Origin: an uncultured Alphaproteobacteria bacterium
GTDB lineage: Bacteria; Pseudomonadota; Alphaproteobacteria; UBA2136; UBA6156
NCBI GenBank assembly: GCA_937928525.1
Contig: CALFWJ010000160.1
Location: 1-46,497, forward strand
DNA: 46,497 nucleotides
Reading direction: 5' to 3'
Below the pieces are notes generated by a model that did not search any database, was not told the DNA's origin, and saw only the letters and a list, made by a program, of their open reading frames with translations. Of this stretch, positions 1 through 46,497 are shown piece after piece (positions within the stretch are counted from its first letter, which is position 1; every line of letters begins with the position of its first letter). The translations under genes and the position numbers were made by a program.

Positions 1-82
1 ATAAAAGTAAAAGGTAAGAAAGGGTGGCAAGGTGAATGTAATTAAATCAATGGCTTAGCTGAAAACACACGTTTTAAGGGGT

Positions 83-144: not shown

Positions 145-1491
145 ATGAGCAAAAAAAACACACCTGAGAAATTCCCCACTATTAACCCGAATCGCCTTAA
201 GCCATTTGAGCGGAACAGCCGCAACCATGGTGAGGCCAACCTTCGAAAAATTGAGGCCAGCATATTAGAGTTTGGCTTTACGCGGCCGGTGGTTATTGAT
301 GAGGCCGATATGATACTGGCAGGCCACGGCGCAGTGCTTGCCGCTAACAGGCTCAATATGGAGGCCATACCGTACCGCCGCATTGAGGGTTTGAGCGAGG
401 CACAAAAGCGTGCGTATGTTATTGCGGATAATAAAATTGCTGAAACAAGCCAATGGGATATGCCGGTGCTGGCAGCTGAGTTTGCAGAGCTTGAGCAAGA
501 GGGCTTTGATTTAGCCGTTACGGGTTTTGACCTCAAAGAGATTGAGGGCATTATGGATGATGGCCAGGGCGGCTACGGCGCGGCCGGCGATGCAACGGGC
601 AGCATGGCCAAAAAATACCTAGCCCCGCCATTTAGCATTTTGGACACCAAGCAAAAATACTGGCAAGACCGTAAAAAGGCATGGAATGAGCGCATAAATG
701 ATAATGGCGAATCGCGCGAGGGTGCTTTGAGCAAAGGCGAAAACCTTGTTGCCGGCATTAACCAGGGCGTAAGCATTTTGGATGCCGTGCTTGCAGAGGT
801 GCTTTGCCATTGGTTTGCGCAGCCTGGCCACAACGCTTTTGACCCGTTCGCTGGTGACTCTGTGTTTGGTTATGTGGCCTGCAGCTCAGGCCTCACGTTT
901 ACTGGTATTGAGCTGCGTAAAGAGCAGGCCGATTTAAACCAGGCGCGCTTAGACGCTGCAGAGCTGAGCGGTACGTATATTTGCGACACAAGCGAAAATA
1001 TGAGCAAGCACATTAAGCCGGCCAGCATGGATTTTGTTTTTAGCTGCCCACCTTATGCCGATTTGGAAGTTTACAGTGACGACCCAAAGGATTTAAGCAC
1101 CCTGGCGCACGATGAGTTTTTCCCAATATACGAGCGAATCCTGGGCAACACGTATAAGGTGCTCAAAAGCAACCGCTTTGCCGTTATTGTTACCAGTGAA
1201 GTGCGGGGTAAAAATGGCGAATATCTAGGCTTAGTGCCAGCCACCATTAACGCCATGGTGCAGGCCGGCTACAAATATTATAACGAGATCGTCCTGGTAA
1301 ACAGCATTGGCAGCCTGCCCCTGCGCGCAGGCAAGTTCATGCAGCAAAGCCGCAAGGTAGGCAGGCAGCACCAAAACGTGCTGGTGTTTTACAAGGGCGA
1401 CCTCAAGAAAATTAAAGCAAATTTTGGCGAAATAGAGCTGCCGGATATGGAAGCGTTAGCGGAGGATGAAGATGGACAGGCAGTGGAATAA
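145..1491 (+). CDS. ParB-like N-terminal domain fused to an N6-adenine/N4-cytosine DNA methyltransferase
   Basis: Lies in ORF 127..1491; ATG 145 follows AAGGTG. The N-terminal part has a ParB-nuclease-domain pattern (RNSRNH, ILAGHGAVLAA, IPY). The C-terminal half has AdoMet-binding DPFAGDS and catalytic FSCPPY motifs. Confidence 0.85.
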   Translation: MSKKNTPEKFPTINPNRLKPFERNSRNHGEANLRKIEASILEFGFTRPVVIDEADMILAGHGAVLAANRLNMEAIPYRRIEGLSEAQKRAYVIADNKIAETSQWDMPVLAAEFAELEQEGFDLAVTGFDLKEIEGIMDDGQGGYGAAGDATGSMAKKYLAPPFSILDTKQKYWQDRKKAWNERINDNGESREGALSKGENLVAGINQGVSILDAVLAEVLCHWFAQPGHNAFDPFAGDSVFGYVACSSGLTFTGIELRKEQADLNQARLDAAELSGTYICDTSENMSKHIKPASMDFVFSCPPYADLEVYSDDPKDLSTLAHDEFFPIYERILGNTYKVLKSNRFAVIVTSEVRGKNGEYLGLVPATINAMVQAGYKYYNEIVLVNSIGSLPLRAGKFMQQSRKVGRQHQNVLVFYKGDLKKIKANFGEIELPDMEALAEDEDGQAVE

Positions 1492-1666
1492 GCCGGCGCA
1501 AGGCGTTGGCGATGGCAAAATGTTAAAAACTGTTTGTAATTTTGATGCAGAAACACATGCTGAAATAAAGGCGTTGGCTGTTAGGGAAAAAACCAGCTTT
1601 GCAGCACAGGTGCGCATACTGGTTGAGTGGGGTTTAATGGAAGTGGCGGCGCAGGAAAATGATTAA
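1472..1666 (+). CDS. Small ribbon-helix-helix-like DNA-binding protein
   Basis: Lies in ORF 1466..1666; ATG 1472 is 6 nt after GGAGG. CNFDAETHAEIKALAVREKTSFAAQVRILVEWGL fits a strand-helix-helix (CopG/Arc-like) layout. The start could be 1466, 1472 or 1520. Confidence 0.5.
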   Translation: MDRQWNKPAQGVGDGKMLKTVCNFDAETHAEIKALAVREKTSFAAQVRILVEWGLMEVAAQEND

Positions 1667-1670
1667 AGCA

Positions 1671-1765
1671 GGCAACAAAATGCACAAACCGGGCAATAAT
1701 ATGCGAATCCGGGCAATTTTATGCACAAAAGGGGCAATTTAATGCAAACCAGGGGGCAAATAGCC
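1671..1765. repeat. Four full and one partial tandem ~21-bp direct repeats (iteron-like), consensus GGCAAT-WWW-ATGCACAAAcc
   Basis: GGCAA anchors lie at 1671, 1692, 1712, 1733 and 1755, spaced 21, 20, 21 and 22 bp. ATGC is invariant at repeat positions 10-13. The array spans the RHH stop to the AdoMetDC start. Confidence 0.7.
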
Positions 1766-2077
1766 ACGGCCGATATATGGCTTAAAGGCAAATACGACCA
1801 GCTGCGCATATTGGTGGCCATCGAGCGCATGCTGGAAAAGTACACGGTTGTTAACCAGGTGGCGCACCAATTTGCGCCGCACGGGCTTACAAAGGTTTGG
1901 GTGCTAGCCGAGTCGCACTGCGCGCTGCACACATACCCGGAGCACAATTTTATTGCCGTTGACCTGTACACCTGCAGCGGCAGTTACGACCCCCGGCAGT
2001 GCCTTATTGATATGGCCACAGGCCTAGGCTATGTAGACGCGCAATTTAGGCGCAACACACGCGGCCGTAAATTATAA
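1721..2077 (+). CDS. speH-like: SpeH/SpeD-class pyruvoyl S-adenosylmethionine decarboxylase proenzyme homologue
   Basis: HQFAPHGLTKVWVLAESHCALHTYPEHNFIAVDLYTCS matches the hallmark of small prokaryotic AdoMetDC. It has the Glu-Ser self-cleavage site (E64-S65, nt 1910-1915), the downstream His, and the TC(G/S) Cys. An alternative in-frame start is at 1742. Confidence 0.8.
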   Translation: MHKRGNLMQTRGQIATADIWLKGKYDQLRILVAIERMLEKYTVVNQVAHQFAPHGLTKVWVLAESHCALHTYPEHNFIAVDLYTCSGSYDPRQCLIDMATGLGYVDAQFRRNTRGRKL

Positions 2078-2113: not shown

Positions 2114-2368
2114 ATGGAAACCAAAAGCGCACAGATACGCATTTTACTTGAGGCTGGCAAAGACCGTGAGGCACTACGCATTGCGGCTAAGTTCTTTGAC
2201 CGCAGCGATGAAACAGGGCTATACAAAAAAGCGCATGAGGGCTTGCTTAACCCAGGATTTTACAAACAGCTGGGTGTTGATGTAGACTTAACCTACAAGC
2301 AAGCAGTACAAAACTTACGTGAGCGTTTCCTTAATGACCAAAAAGACCACCAAAAAGCAGCCGGCTAA
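2114..2368 (+). CDS. Hypothetical protein (84 aa)
   Basis: ORF in the track with a plausible helical sequence. It is co-oriented and tightly packed; no recognisable motif. Confidence 0.55.
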   Translation: METKSAQIRILLEAGKDREALRIAAKFFDRSDETGLYKKAHEGLLNPGFYKQLGVDVDLTYKQAVQNLRERFLNDQKDHQKAAG

Positions 2369-2753
2369 GAAGGTTACAAAGCCAAGCCACCGCGCCACCA
2401 AAGAGCGGCGCGAAACGGTTGGTGCTATGAGTGCGTACGGAATCCCGCAAAAGGAAATTGCAAACTGCCTTGAGATTGACGTTAAAACGCTGCGCAAGCA
2501 TTACCGTGAGGAGCTGGACACAGCCCAGGCAAAAGCCAATGCAGCCGTTGCCGGCAAGCTGTACAAAAAGGCCATGGGTGGCTGCACCAGGAGCATGATT
2601 TTTTGGCTTAAGACGCGCGGCCGTTGGAGCACCAAGCTTGAGGTAGAAAACACCGGGCTTATAGGCAATGTGCCGCTGCCGCCGCCGGATAAAGAGTTTA
2701 AAGACCCTATTGAGGCTGCAAAATATTACAAGGAAATGGTCAAAGAACTTTAG
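2334..2753 (+). CDS. HTH protein resembling terminase small subunits / phage HTH regulators
   Basis: Lies in ORF 2319..2753 (GTG 2319 or ATG 2334). YGIPQKEIANCLEIDVKTLRKHY is an HTH. The C-terminal IFWLKTRGRW motif is common in small terminase-like proteins. It lies 8.5 kb from TerL, so its role is uncertain. Confidence 0.55.
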   Translation: MTKKTTKKQPAKKVTKPSHRATKERRETVGAMSAYGIPQKEIANCLEIDVKTLRKHYREELDTAQAKANAAVAGKLYKKAMGGCTRSMIFWLKTRGRWSTKLEVENTGLIGNVPLPPPDKEFKDPIEAAKYYKEMVKEL

Positions 2754-2825
2754 CCGTGCTATATTGTTTTTACGGGCAGCAAGCAGGCCAGCTTAAACCC
2801 GTTTTGGTTGCCAAAACTGTGTACA

Positions 2826-2857
2826 ACACCCAGGTGCAATGCCTGGGTGTTTTTTTT
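2826..2857 (+). terminator. Rho-independent terminator
   Basis: Perfect 9-bp stem ACACCCAGG/CCTGGGTGT with a 7-nt loop, followed by T7 (2851-2857). Confidence 0.85.
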
Positions 2858-2871
2858 GTGGTTCTCAACCA

Positions 2872-11043: not shown

Positions 11044-11246
11044 CACCAGCTCAATTTAAAGATGTGCGCCTAAGCAACAAAATGACGCAGCAAGCGTTTG
11101 GTGTGGCTTTAGGCATGCCAAGCAAGAGTGCCGGCCGCAGCGTGCGTGCTTATGAATCCGGCGAAAGAAAAATACCAGGAGTGCTGGCCACGGCTGTGCG
11201 TCTTGTGGAGCAATACGGGTTTGTAAATGGCGAATCCTTGGGATAA
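11040..11246 (+). CDS. XRE-family HTH protein (68 aa)
   Basis: SNKMTQQAFGVALGMPSKSAGRSVRAYESGERKIP is a typical HTH_3/Cro-C1 signature. ATGA overlap upstream; overlaps the TerL start by 20 nt. Confidence 0.75.
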   Translation: MTPAQFKDVRLSNKMTQQAFGVALGMPSKSAGRSVRAYESGERKIPGVLATAVRLVEQYGFVNGESLG

Positions 11247-12867
11247 TGGCACACCAGATTACATGGCCGAATTTACGCGCCGGCGCAAGCTGTACAAACG
11301 CATTGCCGGCGACCCGGAGGCCTGGGAAAGACTAAAGCCATTTTACAAGGCCAACCCGGCGCAATGGATTAACGATTTTTGCGTTACATACGACCCCCGC
11401 AACAAACCGCCCAAACCTAAAACACTGCCGTTTTTGCTGTTCCCCCGCCAGGAGGAGTTTATTGCATGCCTGCAAGAGTGTGTGGAGCTTGGCGAGTCGC
11501 TCATTGTGGAGAAAAGCCGCGACATGGGCGCAAGTTGGCTGTGCTGCGCATACAGCGTGCACCAATGGTATTTTAACTCAGGCGCAAGCATTGGCTGGGG
11601 TAGCCGTAAGCAAGAGCTGGTTGATAAGCTGGGCGACCCCGATTCCATATTTGAAAAAATGCGCATAATTATTGACCACTTGCCCAGCTTCCATATACCG
11701 GAAACCTTTGGCCTGGGCAGCCATGCTAACTTTATGAAGCTGGTAAACCCGGCCAACGGCTCAACGGTTACTGGTGAGGCTGGCGACAATATCGGCCGTG
11801 GTGGCCGCAGCATGATGTACTTTAAGGATGAATCCGCACACTACGAGCGCGCAGAGAAAATTGAGGCAGCCCTGGGCGACAACACAGACGTACAGGTTGA
11901 TATTTCAAGTGTAAATGGCACTAACAACGTGTTTTACCGGCGCGCGCAGGCGGCCGGCGTTTGGTATCCCAAAGGCAAGTTGCTGCCGCCGGGCACGACT
12001 CGCAAGTTTATTATGGATTGGCGCGACCACCCGCTAAAAGACCAGGCCTGGTATGACCGCCGCAAAGCCAAAGCAGAAAATGAGGGCTTGCTGGCAGCTT
12101 TTGCACAGGAGGTTGACAGGGATTATAGCAGCGCGGTTGAGGGCATAATAATACAGCCAGGCTGGGTTAAGGCTGCTATTGATGCGCACATAAAGCTAGG
12201 CATAGAAGACGATGGCGAAAAAATAGGCGCGCTGGACTTGGCCGATGAGGGCAGGGATAAGCACGCATTTGCCGGCCGGCATGGCGTGGTGCTTAAAAAG
12301 TGCTACGATTGGCCGCGCGGCGATGGAGGGCGAGCAGCCAGGCTTGCCGTTGATGAGTGCGTGCAGCTGAGCGCAACCGAATTGTACTATGATTCCATTG
12401 GTGTTGGCGCGGCCGCAAAAAGCGAAACAAACCGCATGCAAGAGCACGGCGAGCTGCCCAGGCATTTAACTGTGCGGGGCTGGAACGCCGGCGCAAGCCC
12501 TCAAGAGCCTGAAAAAAACATCATTAAGGGGGATGCAGAGTCGCCTAAAAACAAAGATTATTTTGAAAATTTGAGCATACAGGCCTACCATTTGCTTGCT
12601 CAAAGGTTTTACAAAACGTACCTGGCCGTAACAAAAGGCCGTGAATACCCGCACGATGAGCTAATAAGTATTAGCAGTGATATTGAGCAATTAGATGAAA
12701 TTGTGATAGAGTTAAGCCAGGCAACCCAAACCTTTAGCAAAAAAGGCAAAAAAATGCTGCAAAAAACGCCGGAAGGGGGCAAAAGCCCTAACTTAGCGGA
12801 CTGTATTAAAATGTGCTACTGCCCTGTGCGTAAGGGCGTGGACTATAGCAAATTGGTGACAATGTAA
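11227..12867 (+). CDS. terL: Terminase large subunit
   Basis: 546 aa immediately upstream of the portal. It has an ATPase-type VEKSRDMGASW segment and a C-terminal nuclease-sized half. Gene order is TerL-portal-MuF. Confidence 0.85.
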   Translation: MANPWDNGTPDYMAEFTRRRKLYKRIAGDPEAWERLKPFYKANPAQWINDFCVTYDPRNKPPKPKTLPFLLFPRQEEFIACLQECVELGESLIVEKSRDMGASWLCCAYSVHQWYFNSGASIGWGSRKQELVDKLGDPDSIFEKMRIIIDHLPSFHIPETFGLGSHANFMKLVNPANGSTVTGEAGDNIGRGGRSMMYFKDESAHYERAEKIEAALGDNTDVQVDISSVNGTNNVFYRRAQAAGVWYPKGKLLPPGTTRKFIMDWRDHPLKDQAWYDRRKAKAENEGLLAAFAQEVDRDYSSAVEGIIIQPGWVKAAIDAHIKLGIEDDGEKIGALDLADEGRDKHAFAGRHGVVLKKCYDWPRGDGGRAARLAVDECVQLSATELYYDSIGVGAAAKSETNRMQEHGELPRHLTVRGWNAGASPQEPEKNIIKGDAESPKNKDYFENLSIQAYHLLAQRFYKTYLAVTKGREYPHDELISISSDIEQLDEIVIELSQATQTFSKKGKKMLQKTPEGGKSPNLADCIKMCYCPVRKGVDYSKLVTM

Positions 12868-41819: not shown

Positions 41820-42369
41820 CGCCTTGCCTCCAAACAAATTTTGTGCCGCCCTGGTGGCCGCGCTTAAAGCAATACCAAGCGCAGTTATCCTTGCCGGTGT
41901 TTTTGCTGCCTGGAATCCACTTAACACGGCCAACGCTAACCACTTTTACGCAGTATTTTTTAAACTCATTGGCCTGCACAGTATGCAAATAATCAGCATC
42001 AAGCAGAACCCATATTTCGCCAGCAAAAATGCTAAGTAAATGGCGCATAATGTGGTTAAAAATCTCGCCTTTGTCCGGGCGTTTTTCCCATGGCGGGTTG
42101 GTTATAATGTGCGTGCAGCCCTGCAGCATTTTAGCCGTAAGCTTAAGCGCATCTATTTTGGTGACTCGCGGGTCTGTAGGTTTTATGTCGCTGGCATGCG
42201 CCACCTCAAGCCCGTTGTATATAAGGTGGTAGCACAGCAAAAAATTGCCGGCGCACACCTCTGCATATTTGCCTAAAGGGTCAAGGTGCTCAATAACCGG
42301 CACAGCGGCCGCATATGGCGTTTCGTAAAAATCGCGCGGGTTGCGCTCAAATTCGCTGCGTTTACCCAT
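41809..42369 (-). CDS. Orphan DNA N6-adenine-type methyltransferase (NPPW)
   Basis: DFYETP near the N-terminus, AEVCAGN (AdoMet site) and IITNPPW catalytic motif. No adjacent restriction gene. Confidence 0.75.
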   Translation of the reverse strand: MGKRSEFERNPRDFYETPYAAAVPVIEHLDPLGKYAEVCAGNFLLCYHLIYNGLEVAHASDIKPTDPRVTKIDALKLTAKMLQGCTHIITNPPWEKRPDKGEIFNHIMRHLLSIFAGEIWVLLDADYLHTVQANEFKKYCVKVVSVGRVKWIPGSKNTGKDNCAWYCFKRGHQGGTKFVWRQGDGS

Positions 42370-42692: not shown

Positions 42693-42870
42693 TGTTTTTT
42701 TGCTCCTGTTTGGTTAAATGCCAGTGCCCACAAAAATGGCACTGGTAACTGTTTGTGGCGGGTTTCCCGCCTAGCTTGGCCGCTCTGGCGCGGTATTTGT
42801 TGGCCGCCTTGCGCGCTTTTTTGCGCGTGCGGTATATTATTTTTTGAGTGGTGGCGCATAATTTTTTCAC
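42679..42870 (-). CDS. Small basic zinc-ribbon-like protein
   Basis: 63 aa, Lys/Arg-rich, with YQCHFCGHWHLT near the C-terminus. It overlaps the primase stop. Confidence 0.55.
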   Translation of the reverse strand: MKKLCATTQKIIYRTRKKARKAANKYRARAAKLGGKPATNSYQCHFCGHWHLTKQEQKNNDEA

Positions 42871-45449
42871 CAGTCAATATCCTCTCCCGTATCTGCCGCC
42901 TCCTGCGCCTGCTCATGCTGTTCTAAAAAATCAATTTCGCTCTGGCCATCAACTTTGTGCCATGCTGTTTCCTTTTTGCCGGCCACTGTGCGCCGCTCGT
43001 ACTGGTAACCGAGTCCGGTCATTATTTTGCTTATGTCGTCCTGCGCCTGGCGCGTGCGGCGCGTGCGGTCTGTAATAACAAGCGCGTCCCATATCTCATG
43101 TGGGTAAATGTAGTGGCGGTTGGCGGCCAGCTTCTCAAGGTCTGCCTGCCATGGGTGTATATTCTCGCGCATACGCTGCGCGTAAATGGCTTTTTCGTAT
43201 AGCTCGCCCTCTAAAAATAGCTTTTCGCCAGCCTTCCAAACTGCGTAAGCCTCTGCCCACAGCTGTTCGCGGTTCTCTTTTATGCCGGCAATATCAATTT
43301 TGGTACAATCCACCGGCCAGTAACGGCGGTTTCCTGTGGGGTCGTCTAAATAACCATCCAGCGGGTTAATAGAGCCTGCCAGTACAAATTGGCGCGGCAT
43401 TATGGTTGGCTCGTTTTGGTATTTTTTAACAATACGGTCATATTGCGTACTAATAACCTGCTTGGCCTCATCGCTGCCCATTTTCTTAAATCCGCTCATC
43501 TCTGCCAGCTCCACAATAAGCACGCCCTGCAGCTTAGGCACTGTGCTGGGGTTTGGCAGGTCTTTTGCTTTAATGGTGTCGTCAAAGTATGCCCGGCCGT
43601 GTATGGTGGCCAGCTCGCGCAGCATTAAGCTTTTACCCAGGTTTTGCGCGCCCTCAAAAATTAAAATATGGTCAAACTTACACCCAGGCTGCATAACCCT
43701 GGCTACAGCTGCCGCCATCCACTTGCGCCCCACTGCGCTTAAATACTCTGGGTCGTCCTTTTTGCAGCCAGCATACGTGCGCAACCATGTATCGAGTCGC
43801 GGTACACCATCCCATTTTAGGCCTTTAAAGTATTCCTGCGCCGGGTTTTTTTGGTTGGCCATTATGCACGAGTCCAAAACTTTACGCAGGTTATTAAGGC
43901 CAGGAATCATGCCCTTTTTTTCCAGGTGCATGCCAAGCCAGGTTACATCTTCATCGCGCAGCGTACGTGGCATAAATTGCTTTGTGCGTTCCCATGGCGG
44001 CTTAAACGCAACAACCTTTTCCTGCGCAAACGCATCAAAAACAAACAAGCCCCTGTAATCCGGGTCGTATTCAATGTACACGCGCGTGTTGTCCAGGCTA
44101 TTGCTTTTTGGTTGCCCTTGGTCATTGTAAAAAATAAGGCTCTGCCAATCATCGCGCGCCGGCGGTAACCCGCTGCCAGCCATCGCCGTTGCCGTGCCAT
44201 CTGCATTAAGTGCAACCTCATTGCCAGGCTCTTGCTCTTCTGGCTCATGGTCTGCATATAGGTTTGTAAGCCGCTCTGCCTCTTCCGCGCTGTATTCAAC
44301 GGTGGGCACTTGAGCAAATAAAGCTTCCGCTTCCTCTTGTGTTAAAGGCGCACCAGCGGCGTAGAGGGAATCATCATAACCGCCGGTGCTATCTGGGGTG
44401 CGTTTTGCAGGCGCAGCCACCAGAATCCTGTTACGCACAGCCTCAATGCCGTGCATTTTGTGCATATCATTAAAATCAGTATTTTTGCCCGGGTCGTCTA
44501 TAGCAATATCCGGGTATATAACGTGCGCTGCAACCTTTACACCAACCTGTCGTGCTTTTTCCAGGCCTGGGTTTGTAAGGCGGTTGTGCTCGCGCCACTC
44601 AAGCCAGCGGGGGTCGTCCCCTGGTATCTCTTTTGGCTTAATATCTGCCGGCCGTGCGCGCCGGTTAAATGTCCACTGGTCGTTGTCGGCCGCTATAATA
44701 ATGCGCGAATCCGGGTATTTTTTGCGCACAAATTTTGCCACAGCCATGAGGTTGCCAGCATTAAACGCCACAAATACTGGCCACTCTGGCATGGCCTCAC
44801 GCAGCGTTTTACCGGTTGCCCAGCCCTCACATATTACAATGTTGTCCTTAGGGTTGTCCGGGCTGCCCAAAACAGCGTAGCCGCCGGCCACATCGCCGCC
44901 CTCCCAAAACGCTTTAAAGCCCTCTGGCCATATGCGCTGCAGGCTGCTTAGCGCGTTGCCCTTATATATTGGCACTAACAGTACATTTTTTTGCAGCTTG
45001 CCATCGTTGCCCGGTATATCGCCAACCCGGCTACCGGCTGCGCTTACGCCTTTGGTTTTTAAATATGGGTGCTGCTTCTCTTTGGCTTTGCGCCACACCT
45101 CAGTACAAACCTTAGCCACCTGCTCATACTGCGCCGCCTGCTCTTTTTCGTGCTGGGCTTTTTTGGCCGCTATTTTCTCTTTAAAGGCTTTGCGTTCCTC
45201 AGGTGTCCATTTTTTATTGCTCTTGCTGTGCCAGCTGTTCGCCTCTTCGCCGTGGGGGAAATACACAAAGCAACCAAAGCCAAAACCATCCTCAATAGCC
45301 AGCTTATAGCGCAAGTCTGGCTTTTTATCGCCCTGCACTTTAATCCTGTGCCATTGGTCGTCTGCCACAATATCAGCTGCGCTTTGTGGTGGGCAGCCTT
45401 TGGCCGCCATAGCGTCTATAAATTGTTGTATGAGGTCAAAATCGTCCAT
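42867..45449 (-). CDS. DNA primase (Toprim) fused to a VirE-type P-loop NTPase
   Basis: Toprim ICEGWATGKTL and IIIAADND. C-terminal VirE-like DGVPRLDTWL...FEGAQNLGKS Walker A. 860 aa. Confidence 0.85.
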   Translation of the reverse strand: MDDFDLIQQFIDAMAAKGCPPQSAADIVADDQWHRIKVQGDKKPDLRYKLAIEDGFGFGCFVYFPHGEEANSWHSKSNKKWTPEERKAFKEKIAAKKAQHEKEQAAQYEQVAKVCTEVWRKAKEKQHPYLKTKGVSAAGSRVGDIPGNDGKLQKNVLLVPIYKGNALSSLQRIWPEGFKAFWEGGDVAGGYAVLGSPDNPKDNIVICEGWATGKTLREAMPEWPVFVAFNAGNLMAVAKFVRKKYPDSRIIIAADNDQWTFNRRARPADIKPKEIPGDDPRWLEWREHNRLTNPGLEKARQVGVKVAAHVIYPDIAIDDPGKNTDFNDMHKMHGIEAVRNRILVAAPAKRTPDSTGGYDDSLYAAGAPLTQEEAEALFAQVPTVEYSAEEAERLTNLYADHEPEEQEPGNEVALNADGTATAMAGSGLPPARDDWQSLIFYNDQGQPKSNSLDNTRVYIEYDPDYRGLFVFDAFAQEKVVAFKPPWERTKQFMPRTLRDEDVTWLGMHLEKKGMIPGLNNLRKVLDSCIMANQKNPAQEYFKGLKWDGVPRLDTWLRTYAGCKKDDPEYLSAVGRKWMAAAVARVMQPGCKFDHILIFEGAQNLGKSLMLRELATIHGRAYFDDTIKAKDLPNPSTVPKLQGVLIVELAEMSGFKKMGSDEAKQVISTQYDRIVKKYQNEPTIMPRQFVLAGSINPLDGYLDDPTGNRRYWPVDCTKIDIAGIKENREQLWAEAYAVWKAGEKLFLEGELYEKAIYAQRMRENIHPWQADLEKLAANRHYIYPHEIWDALVITDRTRRTRQAQDDISKIMTGLGYQYERRTVAGKKETAWHKVDGQSEIDFLEQHEQAQEAADTGEDIDW

Positions 45450-46287: not shown

Positions 46288-46323
46288 TTGCGTGCACAAT
46301 GTTAGCAACTTGCGTGCACATTG
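46288..46323. repeat. Two direct copies of TTGCGTGCACA spaced 22 bp apart (operator-like)
   Basis: TTGCGTGCACAATG at 46288-46301 and TTGCGTGCACATTG at 46310-46323. They overlap the candidate leftward promoter. Confidence 0.55.
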
Positions 46324-46384: not shown

Positions 46385-46497
46385 AAAGCTAAAGCGGTGG
46401 CGCGCGTTTGCAATAAAAACAATGGCTTAGCCCAAAAGCCCCCAGCCAGGGCAAAACCTTAATGGTTTACACTTATTACCAGGGGGGGTTACCCCCT

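What the first reader, a model, noticed from the sequence alone, without database searches (positions are those of the whole stretch)
1671..1765. Iteron-like array of 21-bp direct repeats straddling the AdoMetDC start codon
Seen: GGCAACAAAATGCACAAACC, GGCAATAATATGCGAATCCG, GGCAATTTTATGCACAAAAGG and GGCAATTTAATGCAAACCAGGG, plus a partial GGCAAATAGCC. The anchors lie at 1671, 1692, 1712, 1733 and 1755, a period of two helical turns, with invariant GGCAA and ATGC blocks. Each unit carries an ATG; two of these (1721, 1742) are in frame with the AdoMetDC ORF. Inference: the array is a phased binding site for an oligomerising DNA-binding protein. One candidate role is an operator for the RHH protein encoded immediately upstream, since RHH proteins typically bind tandem repeats. 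A second is a replication-origin iteron set. A third is a pac/recognition site for the small-terminase-like HTH protein at 2334-2753 or for the ParB-like domain.
Basis: partly seen in the sequence, partly recalled or inferred. Interest (0 to 1): 0.6.

Follow-up and report, generated by a model that had tools for sequence, protein, structure and literature searches.

The report
Conserved curved repeat array before AdoMetDC
A real array of four 21-bp repeats, built from copies of the AdoMetDC gene's own ribosome-binding site and start codon, sits at the edge of a slot where related phages carry different small genes; it is kept by selection and is probably a protein-binding platform, but it is not a replication origin or a packaging site.

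Summary
There are four GGCAA-N4-ATGC units at 1671, 1692, 1712 and 1733, plus a partial fifth; this motif is expected about 0.2 times in the whole window. The true AdoMetDC start is ATG 1742, inside unit 4.

New here: each unit is a copy of the AdoMetDC ribosome-binding site plus its first 7 codons. In about 30 distant relatives the methylase and AdoMetDC genes abut, with no RHH gene and no array. Closer relatives show a variable cargo slot at this junction. One lineage (L073-L077) carries a homologous array behind a different gene and has no RHH on its short contigs. Its sister L072 (88-92% protein identity, same TerS and primase) has no array.

Units 2 and 3 are 38/41 identical between lineages, against 54% at synonymous sites (P about 1e-7), so the array is under selection. 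It is also the most curved DNA predicted in the window.

Origin and pac roles are disfavoured, and a partition role fails because there is no ParA. My best guess (0.4) is a one-face binding platform for the adjacent RHH that modulates AdoMetDC-TerS expression. Another ligand, a translational relay, or a cargo-exchange boundary remain open.

The parts
1671..1691 (+). Repeat unit 1, GGCAACAAAATGCACAAACCG. It holds ATG 1680.
1692..1711 (+). Repeat unit 2, GGCAATAATATGCGAATCCG (20 nt). It holds ATG 1701.
   Evidence: The 13-bp core is 13/13 identical to unit 914 of L073.
1712..1732 (+). Repeat unit 3, GGCAATTTTATGCACAAAAGG. It holds ATG 1721. Its 3' end supplies the Shine-Dalgarno AAGGGG (1729-1734) for AdoMetDC.
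   Evidence: It is 21/21 identical to unit 934 of L073. The Shine-Dalgarno pairing energy is -7.0 kcal/mol.
1733..1754 (+). Repeat unit 4, GGCAATTTAATGCAAACCAGGG. It holds the true AdoMetDC start, ATG 1742.
1755..1765 (+). Partial unit 5, GGCAAATAGCC, lying inside AdoMetDC codons 5-8. The array was copied from this part of the gene.
   Evidence: Relatives read GGCAAAATAGCC or GGGTAAATTAGCT at the same codons.
1629..1670 (+). Two possible degenerate units inside the 3' end of the RHH gene, with ATGs at 1637 and 1659 that keep the 21-22 nt spacing. This is weak evidence.
   Evidence: (family D1: the 41-nt copy 1650-1690, which includes this candidate unit, is 63% identical to the reference 1671-1711; by eye 1650-1670 matches unit 1 at 12/21).
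1680..1742 (+). Short open frame of 20 codons (MHKPGNNMRIRAILCTKGAI). Its TAA stop (1740-1742) overlaps ATG 1742 as TAATG. It may relay translation from the RHH gene to AdoMetDC.
   Evidence: Read from the sequence. L073 has a homologous frame, MQIRAILCTKGAIYGHTG, but its end point differs (sequence).
1472..1666 (+). Ribbon-helix-helix protein gene (64 aa from ATG 1472; Shine-Dalgarno GGAGG). It is the cargo gene specific to this lineage in the slot.
   Evidence: Pfam ParG 21.8 bits (cut-off 21.4). PDB ParG E = 0.007. 120 homologue clusters. AlphaFold pLDDT 92.8, and the top fold matches are almost all RHH proteins. Shine-Dalgarno -9.5 kcal/mol.
1742..2077 (+). AdoMetDC (SpeH-type) gene, 111 aa.
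   Evidence: Pfam PF02675, E = 6e-19. Homologues at 70-74% identity.
145..1491 (+). ParB-N / N6_N4 DNA methyltransferase gene. It forms the left edge of the cargo slot.
2114..2368 (+). Conserved 84-aa gene of unknown function (PHROG 18237).
2334..2753 (+). Small terminase subunit-like gene.
   Evidence: PHROG 309, E = 1e-17. 73-74% identical to the L072 and L073 proteins.
2825..2861 (+). Strong intrinsic-terminator-like hairpin (12-bp stem plus a T run) that closes the methylase-to-TerS operon.

Best explanation
SHOWN. The array is a tandem amplification (21 nt = 7 codons) of the AdoMetDC translation-initiation region: G-rich Shine-Dalgarno, an A/T spacer, ATG and the first codons. Its last copy is the working start, ATG 1742. 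It lies at the right edge of a variable cargo slot between the ParB-methylase and AdoMetDC genes. In this phage the slot holds an RHH gene. The array is kept by purifying selection, and the DNA is predicted to be strongly curved.

INFERRED. It works at the DNA level as a one-face binding platform. The invariant blocks GGCAA and ATGC contain a GCA-N6-TGC dyad. Their centres are alternately about 8.5 and 12.5 bp apart, averaging one helical turn, so eight major-groove contacts line up on one face of a bent helix. That is the geometry used by RHH dimers that bind side by side, as in Arc, CopG and ParG.

The most likely ligand here is the RHH protein encoded immediately upstream in the same transcript. 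Bound over 1671-1745, inside the methylase-to-TerS operon and with no promoter there, it would act as a roadblock or occluding nucleoprotein. That would lower AdoMetDC, p84 and TerS output relative to the methylase and RHH, giving a feed-forward or negative loop.
For: - Origin from the start region. Unit 4/5 is the gene start itself. Array-less relatives carry one copy of the same motif (L072 GCAATAATG, L076 GGTTTAATG, L078 GGGTAATTTAAATG), followed by M-[ED]-T-[RG]-G.
- Selection. Units 2 and 3 are 38/41 identical between the window and L073, against 54% at 155 four-fold degenerate sites in the flanking genes (P about 9e-8). Leaving out the 8 nt next to the Shine-Dalgarno gives 30/33, P about 6e-6. 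Other intergenic stretches are only 30-45% identical.
- Invariant columns cluster in two blocks. The GGCAA-to-ATGC spacing is fixed at N4, while the linkers vary between 7 and 9 nt.
- Curvature. The array is the window maximum in the full wedge model (95 degrees over 63 bp; mean 28, sd 15) and in the top 0.06% in an AA-only model. The array is also the locus maximum in L073 and L077, but the junction is not unusual in array-less L072, L076 and L078.
- It is not an RNA structure (z = +0.9), and the inner units are not strong start sites (-2.5 kcal/mol).
- The RHH is a real, conserved DNA-binding fold. Its homologues sit at regulatory positions in other phages, next to NusG-like, Mu transposase and GemA genes.
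- All four units are intact in the RHH-bearing window, whereas 2 of 5 are broken in L073, which shows no RHH.
Against: - A homologous array stands behind an unrelated 93-aa gene (PHROG 8231) in L073-L075 and L077, and no RHH is on those 1.7-4.1 kb contigs. The array is therefore not tied to the RHH, unless that phage encodes one elsewhere or its array is a remnant.
- About 20 loci with RHH homologues show no comparable array.
- No sigma-70-like promoter overlaps the array, so the classic operator-over-promoter logic does not apply.
- RHH operators usually lie upstream of the RHH gene, not downstream.
- A 21-nt repeat that contains two A/T tracts is curved automatically, so the curvature could be a by-product.
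- The wedge angles were recalled from memory (Bolshoy-type table), although the AA-only model agrees.
- No binding data exist.
- The high identity could come from a recent small recombination patch rather than from selection.
Confidence: 0.4

Rival explanations
1. The array is a binding or bending platform for a different ligand, not the RHH. This could be a protein shared by both array-bearing lineages, or a host nucleoid protein that prefers curved A/T-tract DNA (H-NS, Fis or IHF type), or DnaA.
For: The array is conserved in a lineage that shows no RHH on its contigs. Curvature is conserved in both lineages. Unit 3 (TTATGCACA, 1719-1727) is the only exact match in the window to the relaxed DnaA box TTATNCACA, and it is identical in L073.
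Against: The other units are 2-3 mismatches away from a DnaA box, and the invariant blocks (GGCAA, ATGC) are not the critical positions of that box (read from sequence). The proteins shared by all relatives (methylase, p84, TerS) are also present in L072, L076 and L078, which lack the array. No candidate ligand is identified.
Confidence: 0.2
2. The constraint acts at the RNA or translation level. The array is an unstructured, A-rich leader that contains a short relay frame. Ribosomes leaving the cargo gene reinitiate at 1680 or 1701 and terminate at TAATG (1740-1744). This restores the stop-start coupling that AdoMetDC has with its upstream gene in array-less relatives.
For: Array-less relatives couple AdoMetDC directly to the upstream gene: TAATG in L072 and L076, TAAATG in L078. 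In the window a 20-codon frame runs from 14 nt after the RHH stop to TAATG. L073 has TAAtATG after its cargo gene, followed by a homologous frame; the three differences in unit 2 give R to Q plus a synonymous Ile (sequence). The leader is less structured than shuffled sequence.
Against: The gap that needs bridging exists only because of the array, so a relay cannot explain why the array is there. The inner Shine-Dalgarno pairings are at background level (-2.5). The frame relations are not conserved: a 1-nt indel in unit 4 of L073 moves the end of the short frame 15 nt past the start, and in L077 the array is read in yet another frame as a fusion linker.
Confidence: 0.15
3. The array is a boundary element, or a scar, of cargo exchange. 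Repeated unequal or illegitimate recombination at the AdoMetDC start region during gene swapping created the tandem copies, and these now serve as the homology patch where new cargo is joined.
For: At least six different gene contents occupy the slot in relatives: none, DUF6527/BubE of two sizes, DUF6527 plus p93, p76, p84' plus BubE, and the RHH. Two unrelated cargo genes (RHH and p93) both end in or at the array, and the last roughly 10 residues of p93 lie beyond its family profile. The array's distribution is patchy against phylogeny: present in the window and L073, absent in L073's sister L072.
Against: A neutral scar should have decayed. Identity in units 2 and 3 is 93% against 54% at neutral sites. 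Only one locus in the genome carries the motif, unlike the dispersed PeSL-type cassettes. No recombinase gene is nearby.
Confidence: 0.15
4. The array is a set of replication-origin iterons, or the pac recognition site of the small terminase.
For: Four roughly 20-bp dyad-containing repeats on curved DNA resemble the lambda origin (from my own knowledge). The array lies about 590 bp upstream of terS.
Against: The array is absent from L072 and L078, which share the VapE-type primase. It is absent from L072, whose TerS is 89% identical to that of array-bearing L073. No initiator gene is adjacent, the array is 44% G+C, and there is no neighbouring AT-rich stretch. The divergent region at 46.3 kb, with conserved TTGCGTGCACAWTG boxes and one of the AT-richest spots in the window, is a better origin candidate.
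Confidence: 0.03

Closest known systems
ParG with its parH / O_F arrays on plasmid TP228 (RHH protein on degenerate repeats with AT-rich spacers; PMC3130281)
   Same: A small RHH protein with a flexible N-terminal tail, matching ParG weakly. It stands next to an array of short conserved boxes separated by AT-rich spacers on DNA suspected of curvature.
   Different: There is no ParF/ParA ATPase in the phage. The boxes differ: GGCAA / ATGC at a 21-bp period here, against ACTC tetramers at an 8-bp period (the ParG details are from the paper and my own knowledge). The array lies downstream of the RHH gene, and its binding is untested.
Arc, Mnt and CopG operators (RHH dimers bound side by side on one face of bent DNA)
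   Same: The protein model matches Arc, CopG and AmrZ folds. The half-sites are about one helical turn apart and contain TGCA/GCA. This comparison rests on my own knowledge.
   Different: Those operators overlap promoters, and none is found here. The array also occurs without an RHH in a related phage.
Lambda-type origin iterons (four roughly 19-bp repeats on intrinsically curved DNA; my own knowledge)
   Same: Four repeats of about 20 bp, each with a dyad, and strong predicted curvature.
   Different: The array is not inside or beside an initiator gene and has no AT-rich unwinding region. It is dispensable in close relatives that have the same replication genes.
PeSL promoter/stem-loop cassettes of T4-type phages (PMC2839356, PMC4122927)
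   Same: A conserved non-coding motif at the edge of a hyperplastic gene slot where insertions and replacements occur.
   Different: PeSLs are dispersed promoter-plus-hairpin units. Here there is a single locus, with no promoter or hairpin, and a tandem array derived from a start region.
Start-associated sequences of Cluster K mycobacteriophages (PMC3203893)
   Same: A conserved motif that includes the ribosome-binding region directly upstream of start codons.
   Different: Those sequences are single copies spread over many genes. This is a tandem array at one gene.

Membership tests
Replication-origin iterons | At least three direct repeats of about 17-22 bp | tested here: met
   Four units, period 21.
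Replication-origin iterons | The repeats lie in or beside the initiator gene, with an adjacent AT-rich unwinding element | tested here: not met
   The neighbouring genes are the RHH and AdoMetDC genes. The VapE-type primase is at 42867-45449. The array is 44% G+C and no AT-rich stretch abuts it.
Replication-origin iterons | Conserved in relatives that share the replication proteins | tested here: not met
   L072 and L078 carry the VapE-type primase but have no array in the 8.3-8.4 kb fetched.
pac site of a headful phage | Located in or next to terS, and conserved with the TerS specificity | tested here: not met
   The array is about 590 bp upstream of terS. The L072 TerS is 89% identical to the L073 TerS, but L072 lacks the array.
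pac site of a headful phage | Virion DNA ends or a coverage step map to the site | not testable with these tools
RHH operator array (Arc / CopG / ParG type) | An RHH DNA-binding protein is encoded nearby | tested here: met
   RHH gene at 1472-1666.
RHH operator array (Arc / CopG / ParG type) | Short conserved subsites phased on one helical face | tested here: met
   The GGCAA and ATGC blocks are alternately 8.5 and 12.5 bp apart, with a 21-bp period.
RHH operator array (Arc / CopG / ParG type) | The array overlaps the regulated promoter | tested here: not met
   No sigma-70-like site on either strand between 1400 and 2200.
RHH operator array (Arc / CopG / ParG type) | Protein and sites co-occur across relatives | tested here: not met
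   The array occurs without an RHH in L073-L077. RHH homologues occur without a comparable array in about 20 loci. The contigs are short, so absence of an RHH from the whole L073 phage is not shown.
RHH operator array (Arc / CopG / ParG type) | Specific binding of the protein to the repeats | not testable with these tools
   This needs EMSA or footprinting.
Type Ib partition cassette (ParF-ParG-parH type) | A ParA/ParF deviant Walker-A ATPase gene | tested here: not met
   The only G-x4-GK[ST] motifs in the six frames lie in the primase/helicase and SF1 helicase genes, and none has the KGG form.
DnaA-box cluster | Several boxes within one mismatch of TTATNCACA | tested here: not met
   Only unit 3 (1719-1727) qualifies.
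PeSL-like shuffling cassette | Dispersed copies with a promoter and a stem-loop flanking variable genes | tested here: not met
   The motif occurs at a single locus, with no promoter and no stable hairpin. Only the position at the boundary of a variable slot is shared.

The most novel reading that the evidence does not exclude
The curved, selected repeat array is a cis-acting docking boundary for a phage cargo slot. New small genes are joined to the conserved AdoMetDC-TerS block by recombination within the duplicated start-region units. Slippage in the array can switch the cargo between a free protein and an in-frame fusion to AdoMetDC: a relative carries 7 or 8 A's in one unit, and this fuses its cargo gene to AdoMetDC.
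Probability: 0.12. Interest if true: 0.65.

Novelty: new variant of a known kind. Interest (0 to 1): 0.4.

Why it matters
If the array binds the RHH, it would be an RHH operator built from duplicated start regions that acts inside an operon rather than at a promoter. It would control a phage SAM decarboxylase and the small terminase.

Independently of the ligand, the locus gives a clean small example of how a variable accessory-gene slot in marine-type phages is bounded by a selected, curved non-coding element. It shows that a structure looking like origin iterons can be excluded as an origin or pac site by comparative genomics alone.

It also corrects the AdoMetDC start to 1742 and the RHH start to 1472.

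Tried and rejected
- Motif scan of IMG/VR. A three-unit pattern gave 7 hits, all unrelated: coding heptad repeats in a fibre-like gene, a 10-bp GGCAATTCAA satellite, and a coding repeat.
- RHH homologue loci. The 15 viral loci plus 3 bacterial-genome loci (two further loci are the same contigs again) were searched for neighbouring arrays. The only find was an unrelated coding 21-nt repeat in L030.
- Closer relatives. There are none in INPHARED, in JGI metagenomes above 55%, or in 61 plus 400 genomes of the host's family-to-class. Only exact-protein look-ups in Logan assemblies gave close relatives.
- Partition system: rejected, because there is no ParA.
- DnaA-box cluster: only one good box.
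- Sigma-54-like reading of GGCA-N-TGC: the spacing is one base short of GG-N10-GC, judged by eye, so I rejected it.
- RNA element: the leader is less stable than shuffled sequence.
- Functional multiple start sites: the inner Shine-Dalgarno pairings are at background level.
- Duplication of the methylase 3' end at the RHH 3' end. The match is 19/27 nt, reached by 4 of 300 shuffles. I dropped it because the RHH tail (GLMEVxx) matches its own family's consensus.
- GGCGT-N3-ACGCC promoter palindromes as the RHH's real operators. They also occur in L072 and L077, whose fetched stretches show no RHH (L072 was fetched only in part), so they do not discriminate.

Full report
**1. The observation**

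There are four full units, GGCAA-N4-ATGC plus a 7-9 nt linker, starting at 1671, 1692, 1712 and 1733, and a partial fifth at 1755. Tandem Repeats Finder calls a period-21 array with score 73. The exact 9-specified-base pattern occurs six times in the window, four of them within these 75 bp. Base composition predicts about 0.2 hits on the + strand of the whole window. With the spacer restricted to [TC]WWW the motif is unique to the array. The invariant columns fall into two blocks, GGCAA and ATGC; a post-hoc permutation test gives P about 0.013. The GGCAA-to-ATGC spacing is constant while the linker length varies. The two blocks contain a GCA-N6-TGC dyad.

**2. Gene context and start codons**

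The window is a whole 46.5-kb contig of a 925-kb, 55%-complete assembly, and its gene content is that of a phage. Genes on the + strand run from 145 to about 33.8 kb. A replication and recombination block lies on the - strand: RecT, a PD-(D/E)XK nuclease, helicases and a Toprim/VapE primase.

Around the array the order is:
- ParB-N/N6_N4 methyltransferase (145-1491)
- a small RHH gene
- the array
- AdoMetDC
- an 84-aa gene
- a TerS-like gene
- a strong terminator at 2825-2861

The RHH starts at ATG 1472, behind GGAGG (-9.5 kcal/mol). AdoMetDC starts at ATG 1742, behind AAGGGG (-7.0 kcal/mol). The ATGs of the inner units, 1701 and 1721, have background-level pairing of -2.5 kcal/mol. The 1742 product, MQTRGQIATADIW, aligns residue for residue with the N-termini of relatives.

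**3. The RHH is real**

It matches Pfam ParG just above the cut-off (21.8 against 21.4 bits) and the ParG structure 1p94 at E = 0.007. An exhaustive search finds 120 homologue clusters of 55-90 aa with the motif VCxFDxETFxxIRxxAxxExTSFAEQVRLLVEWGLE. Other family members match FitA-like RHH as often as ParG. AlphaFold gives pLDDT 92.8 with a strand-helix-helix topology. The top PDB fold matches are almost all RHH DNA binders: AmrZ, MatP, antitoxins, Arc and CopG. The phage has no ParA-type ATPase, so this is not a partition cassette. In other phages the homologues sit beside NusG-like, Mu transposase, GemA, SNF2 and DUF968 genes, which are regulatory neighbourhoods. They have no comparable adjacent repeat arrays.

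**4. Distant relatives**

In about 30 of 40 IMG/VR and JGI loci whose methylase is 35-64% identical, AdoMetDC follows the methylase directly, often overlapping its stop codon. None of them has an RHH or an array at the junction. The RHH plus the array are therefore an addition at this junction.

**5. Close relatives (the decisive data)**

Exact-protein look-ups in Logan assemblies gave phages with 70-81% identical proteins and the same gene order. The junction is a variable cargo slot:

| Locus | Content between methylase and AdoMetDC | Array |
|---|---|---|
| L076, L072 | a DUF6527/BubE gene whose stop overlaps the AdoMetDC start (TAATG) | no |
| L078 | a 76-aa gene | no |
| L079 | an 84-aa gene plus BubE (the contig ends before any AdoMetDC gene) | no |
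| L073-L075, L077 | a DUF6527 gene plus a 93-aa gene (PHROG 8231) | yes |
| window | the RHH gene | yes |

In L073 the units start at 872, 893, 914, 934 and 955. Unit 934 is 21/21 identical to window unit 3. Unit 914 shares the whole 13-bp core with unit 2. Units 893 and 955 are broken: ACGT in place of ATGC, and N3 in place of N4. None of these loci encodes the RHH, and the window encodes none of their cargo genes. By protein identity L072 and L073 are sisters (88-92%), and the window is 73-81% identical to both. The array is therefore patchy and dispensable.

**6. Origin of the units**

Array-less relatives carry one copy of the same motif as their AdoMetDC ribosome-binding region (GCAATAATG, GGTTTAATG, GGGTAATTTAAATG), followed by M-[ED]-T-[RG]-G. 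The Gly-Lys/Gln codons there read GGCAAA, GGGCAA or GGTAAA. A unit is therefore Shine-Dalgarno + spacer + ATG + codons 2-7, which is 21 nt. The array is a tandem amplification of that segment, and its 3' copy is the working start.

**7. Selection**

Four-fold degenerate sites in the four flanking genes are 54% identical between the window and L073 (84/155). Units 2 and 3, which are non-coding in both, are 38/41 identical (P about 9e-8). Leaving out the 8 nt next to the Shine-Dalgarno gives 30/33 (P about 6e-6). Other intergenic DNA is 30-45% identical. A neutral scar is therefore unlikely, although a recent recombination patch of about 60 nt cannot be excluded.

Reading-frame relations are not conserved. 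A 1-nt indel changes where the short upstream frame ends. In L077 an extra A in a poly-A run (8 against 7 in three other runs) reads the array as a linker that fuses the 93-aa gene to AdoMetDC, giving a 219-aa product. This argues against a constraint at the peptide level.

**8. Physical properties**

As RNA the region is less structured than shuffled sequence (z = +0.9). As DNA, a wedge model places the curvature maximum of the whole window on the array: 95 degrees over 63 bp, against a mean of 28 and sd of 15. An AA/TT-only model ranks it in the top 0.06%. In L073 and L077 the array is the locus maximum, while the junctions of L072, L076 and L078 are unremarkable. Two caveats apply. The dinucleotide angles were recalled from memory. 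Any 21-nt repeat with two A/T tracts will be phased with the helix.

**9. What it is not**

- Origin: it is absent from L072 and L078, which share the primase. No initiator gene or AT-rich element adjoins it. The divergent region at 46.29-46.40 kb has conserved TTGCGTGCACAWTG boxes and one of the AT-richest spots, and is the better candidate.
- pac site: it is absent from L072, whose TerS is 89% identical to the L073 TerS. Read ends could not be checked.
- Promoter: none was found.
- DnaA cluster: there is only one good box.

**10. Most likely mechanism**

A selected, phased, curved DNA element with two conserved blocks per helical-turn pair is best read as a one-face protein-binding platform. 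In this phage the only adjacent DNA-binding protein is the RHH, and the block spacing suits side-by-side RHH dimers. Because the array lies inside the operon and covers the AdoMetDC start region, bound protein would act as a roadblock or occluder that tunes AdoMetDC, p84 and TerS. I give this 0.4.

The rivals are:
- another ligand (0.2)
- a translational relay through the 1680-1742 frame that ends in TAATG (0.15)
- a cargo-exchange boundary (0.15)
- an origin or pac site (0.03)

The origin of the units, the selection on them and the exclusion of an origin or pac role are shown. The ligand and its effect are inferred.

**11. Novelty**

Repeat arrays for RHH proteins are well known (parH: PMC3130281). 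Unusual features here are the derivation from a duplicated start region, the position inside an operon at the edge of a cargo slot, and persistence behind different cargo genes. PeSL cassettes (PMC2839356, PMC4122927) and start-associated sequences (PMC3203893) are the nearest concepts, but membership tests for both fail.

Noticed in passing
window 46470-46497 joined to 1-20; L072:2125-2200; L078:3345-3420: The two contig ends are adjacent in relatives. The G7...ACCCCC hairpin at the window's 3' end is followed in L072 and L078 by a poly-C/CT-rich tract of about 25 nt and then ATAAAAGTAAA, which is the window's first bases. The genome is therefore circular or circularly permuted and complete apart from a short low-complexity gap. 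This conserved hairpin plus poly-C element is unexplained.
   Followed up: partly
window 46288-46301 and 46310-46323; L072:1935-1985: Two TTGCGTGCACAWTG boxes lie 22 bp apart in the divergent early region. They are conserved in L072 and sit next to one of the AT-richest spots (about 46340). They are likely operators or an origin region for the neighbouring 231-aa gene on the - strand. The 7-mer TGCACAA occurs 18 times in the window, against about 6 expected.
   Followed up: partly
L073:893-905 versus L077:2064-2077: A poly-A run of 7 in three sequencing runs, or 8 in one run, inside an array unit switches the 93-aa cargo gene between a free ORF and an in-frame 219-aa fusion with AdoMetDC. The 7-A form reads A_AAA_AAC in frame, a -1 slippery heptamer that would give the same fusion.
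   Followed up: partly
junction between the methylase and AdoMetDC genes: window 1472-1741; L072:3651-4001; L076:1418-1726; L078:4906-5136; L079:1532-2153: This is a variable cargo slot. Several relatives carry DUF6527/BubE genes there (Pfam PF20137).
   Followed up: partly
window 24-36 and 129-141: A 13-nt direct repeat, GTGGCAAGGTGAA, occurs 105 bp apart on either side of the GGCGTTTAACGCC palindrome at 89-101. The second copy supplies the Shine-Dalgarno of the methylase start at ATG 145.
   Followed up: no
window 12746-12757 and 42237-42248: These are the only other GCA-W6-TGC sites in the window (about 0.2 expected). They coincide with the second and third highest predicted curvature peaks, at 12719 and 42302.
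   Followed up: no
window 2334-2753 versus 11227-12867: The TerS-like gene lies 8.5 kb upstream of TerL and is closed off by its own strong terminator (2825-2861). The same methylase-AdoMetDC-p84-TerS module is conserved in relatives.
   Followed up: no
L022:11554-12098: An unrelated viral contig carries a long satellite of about 40 tandem 10-bp GGCAATTCAA-type units in an intergenic region.
   Followed up: no
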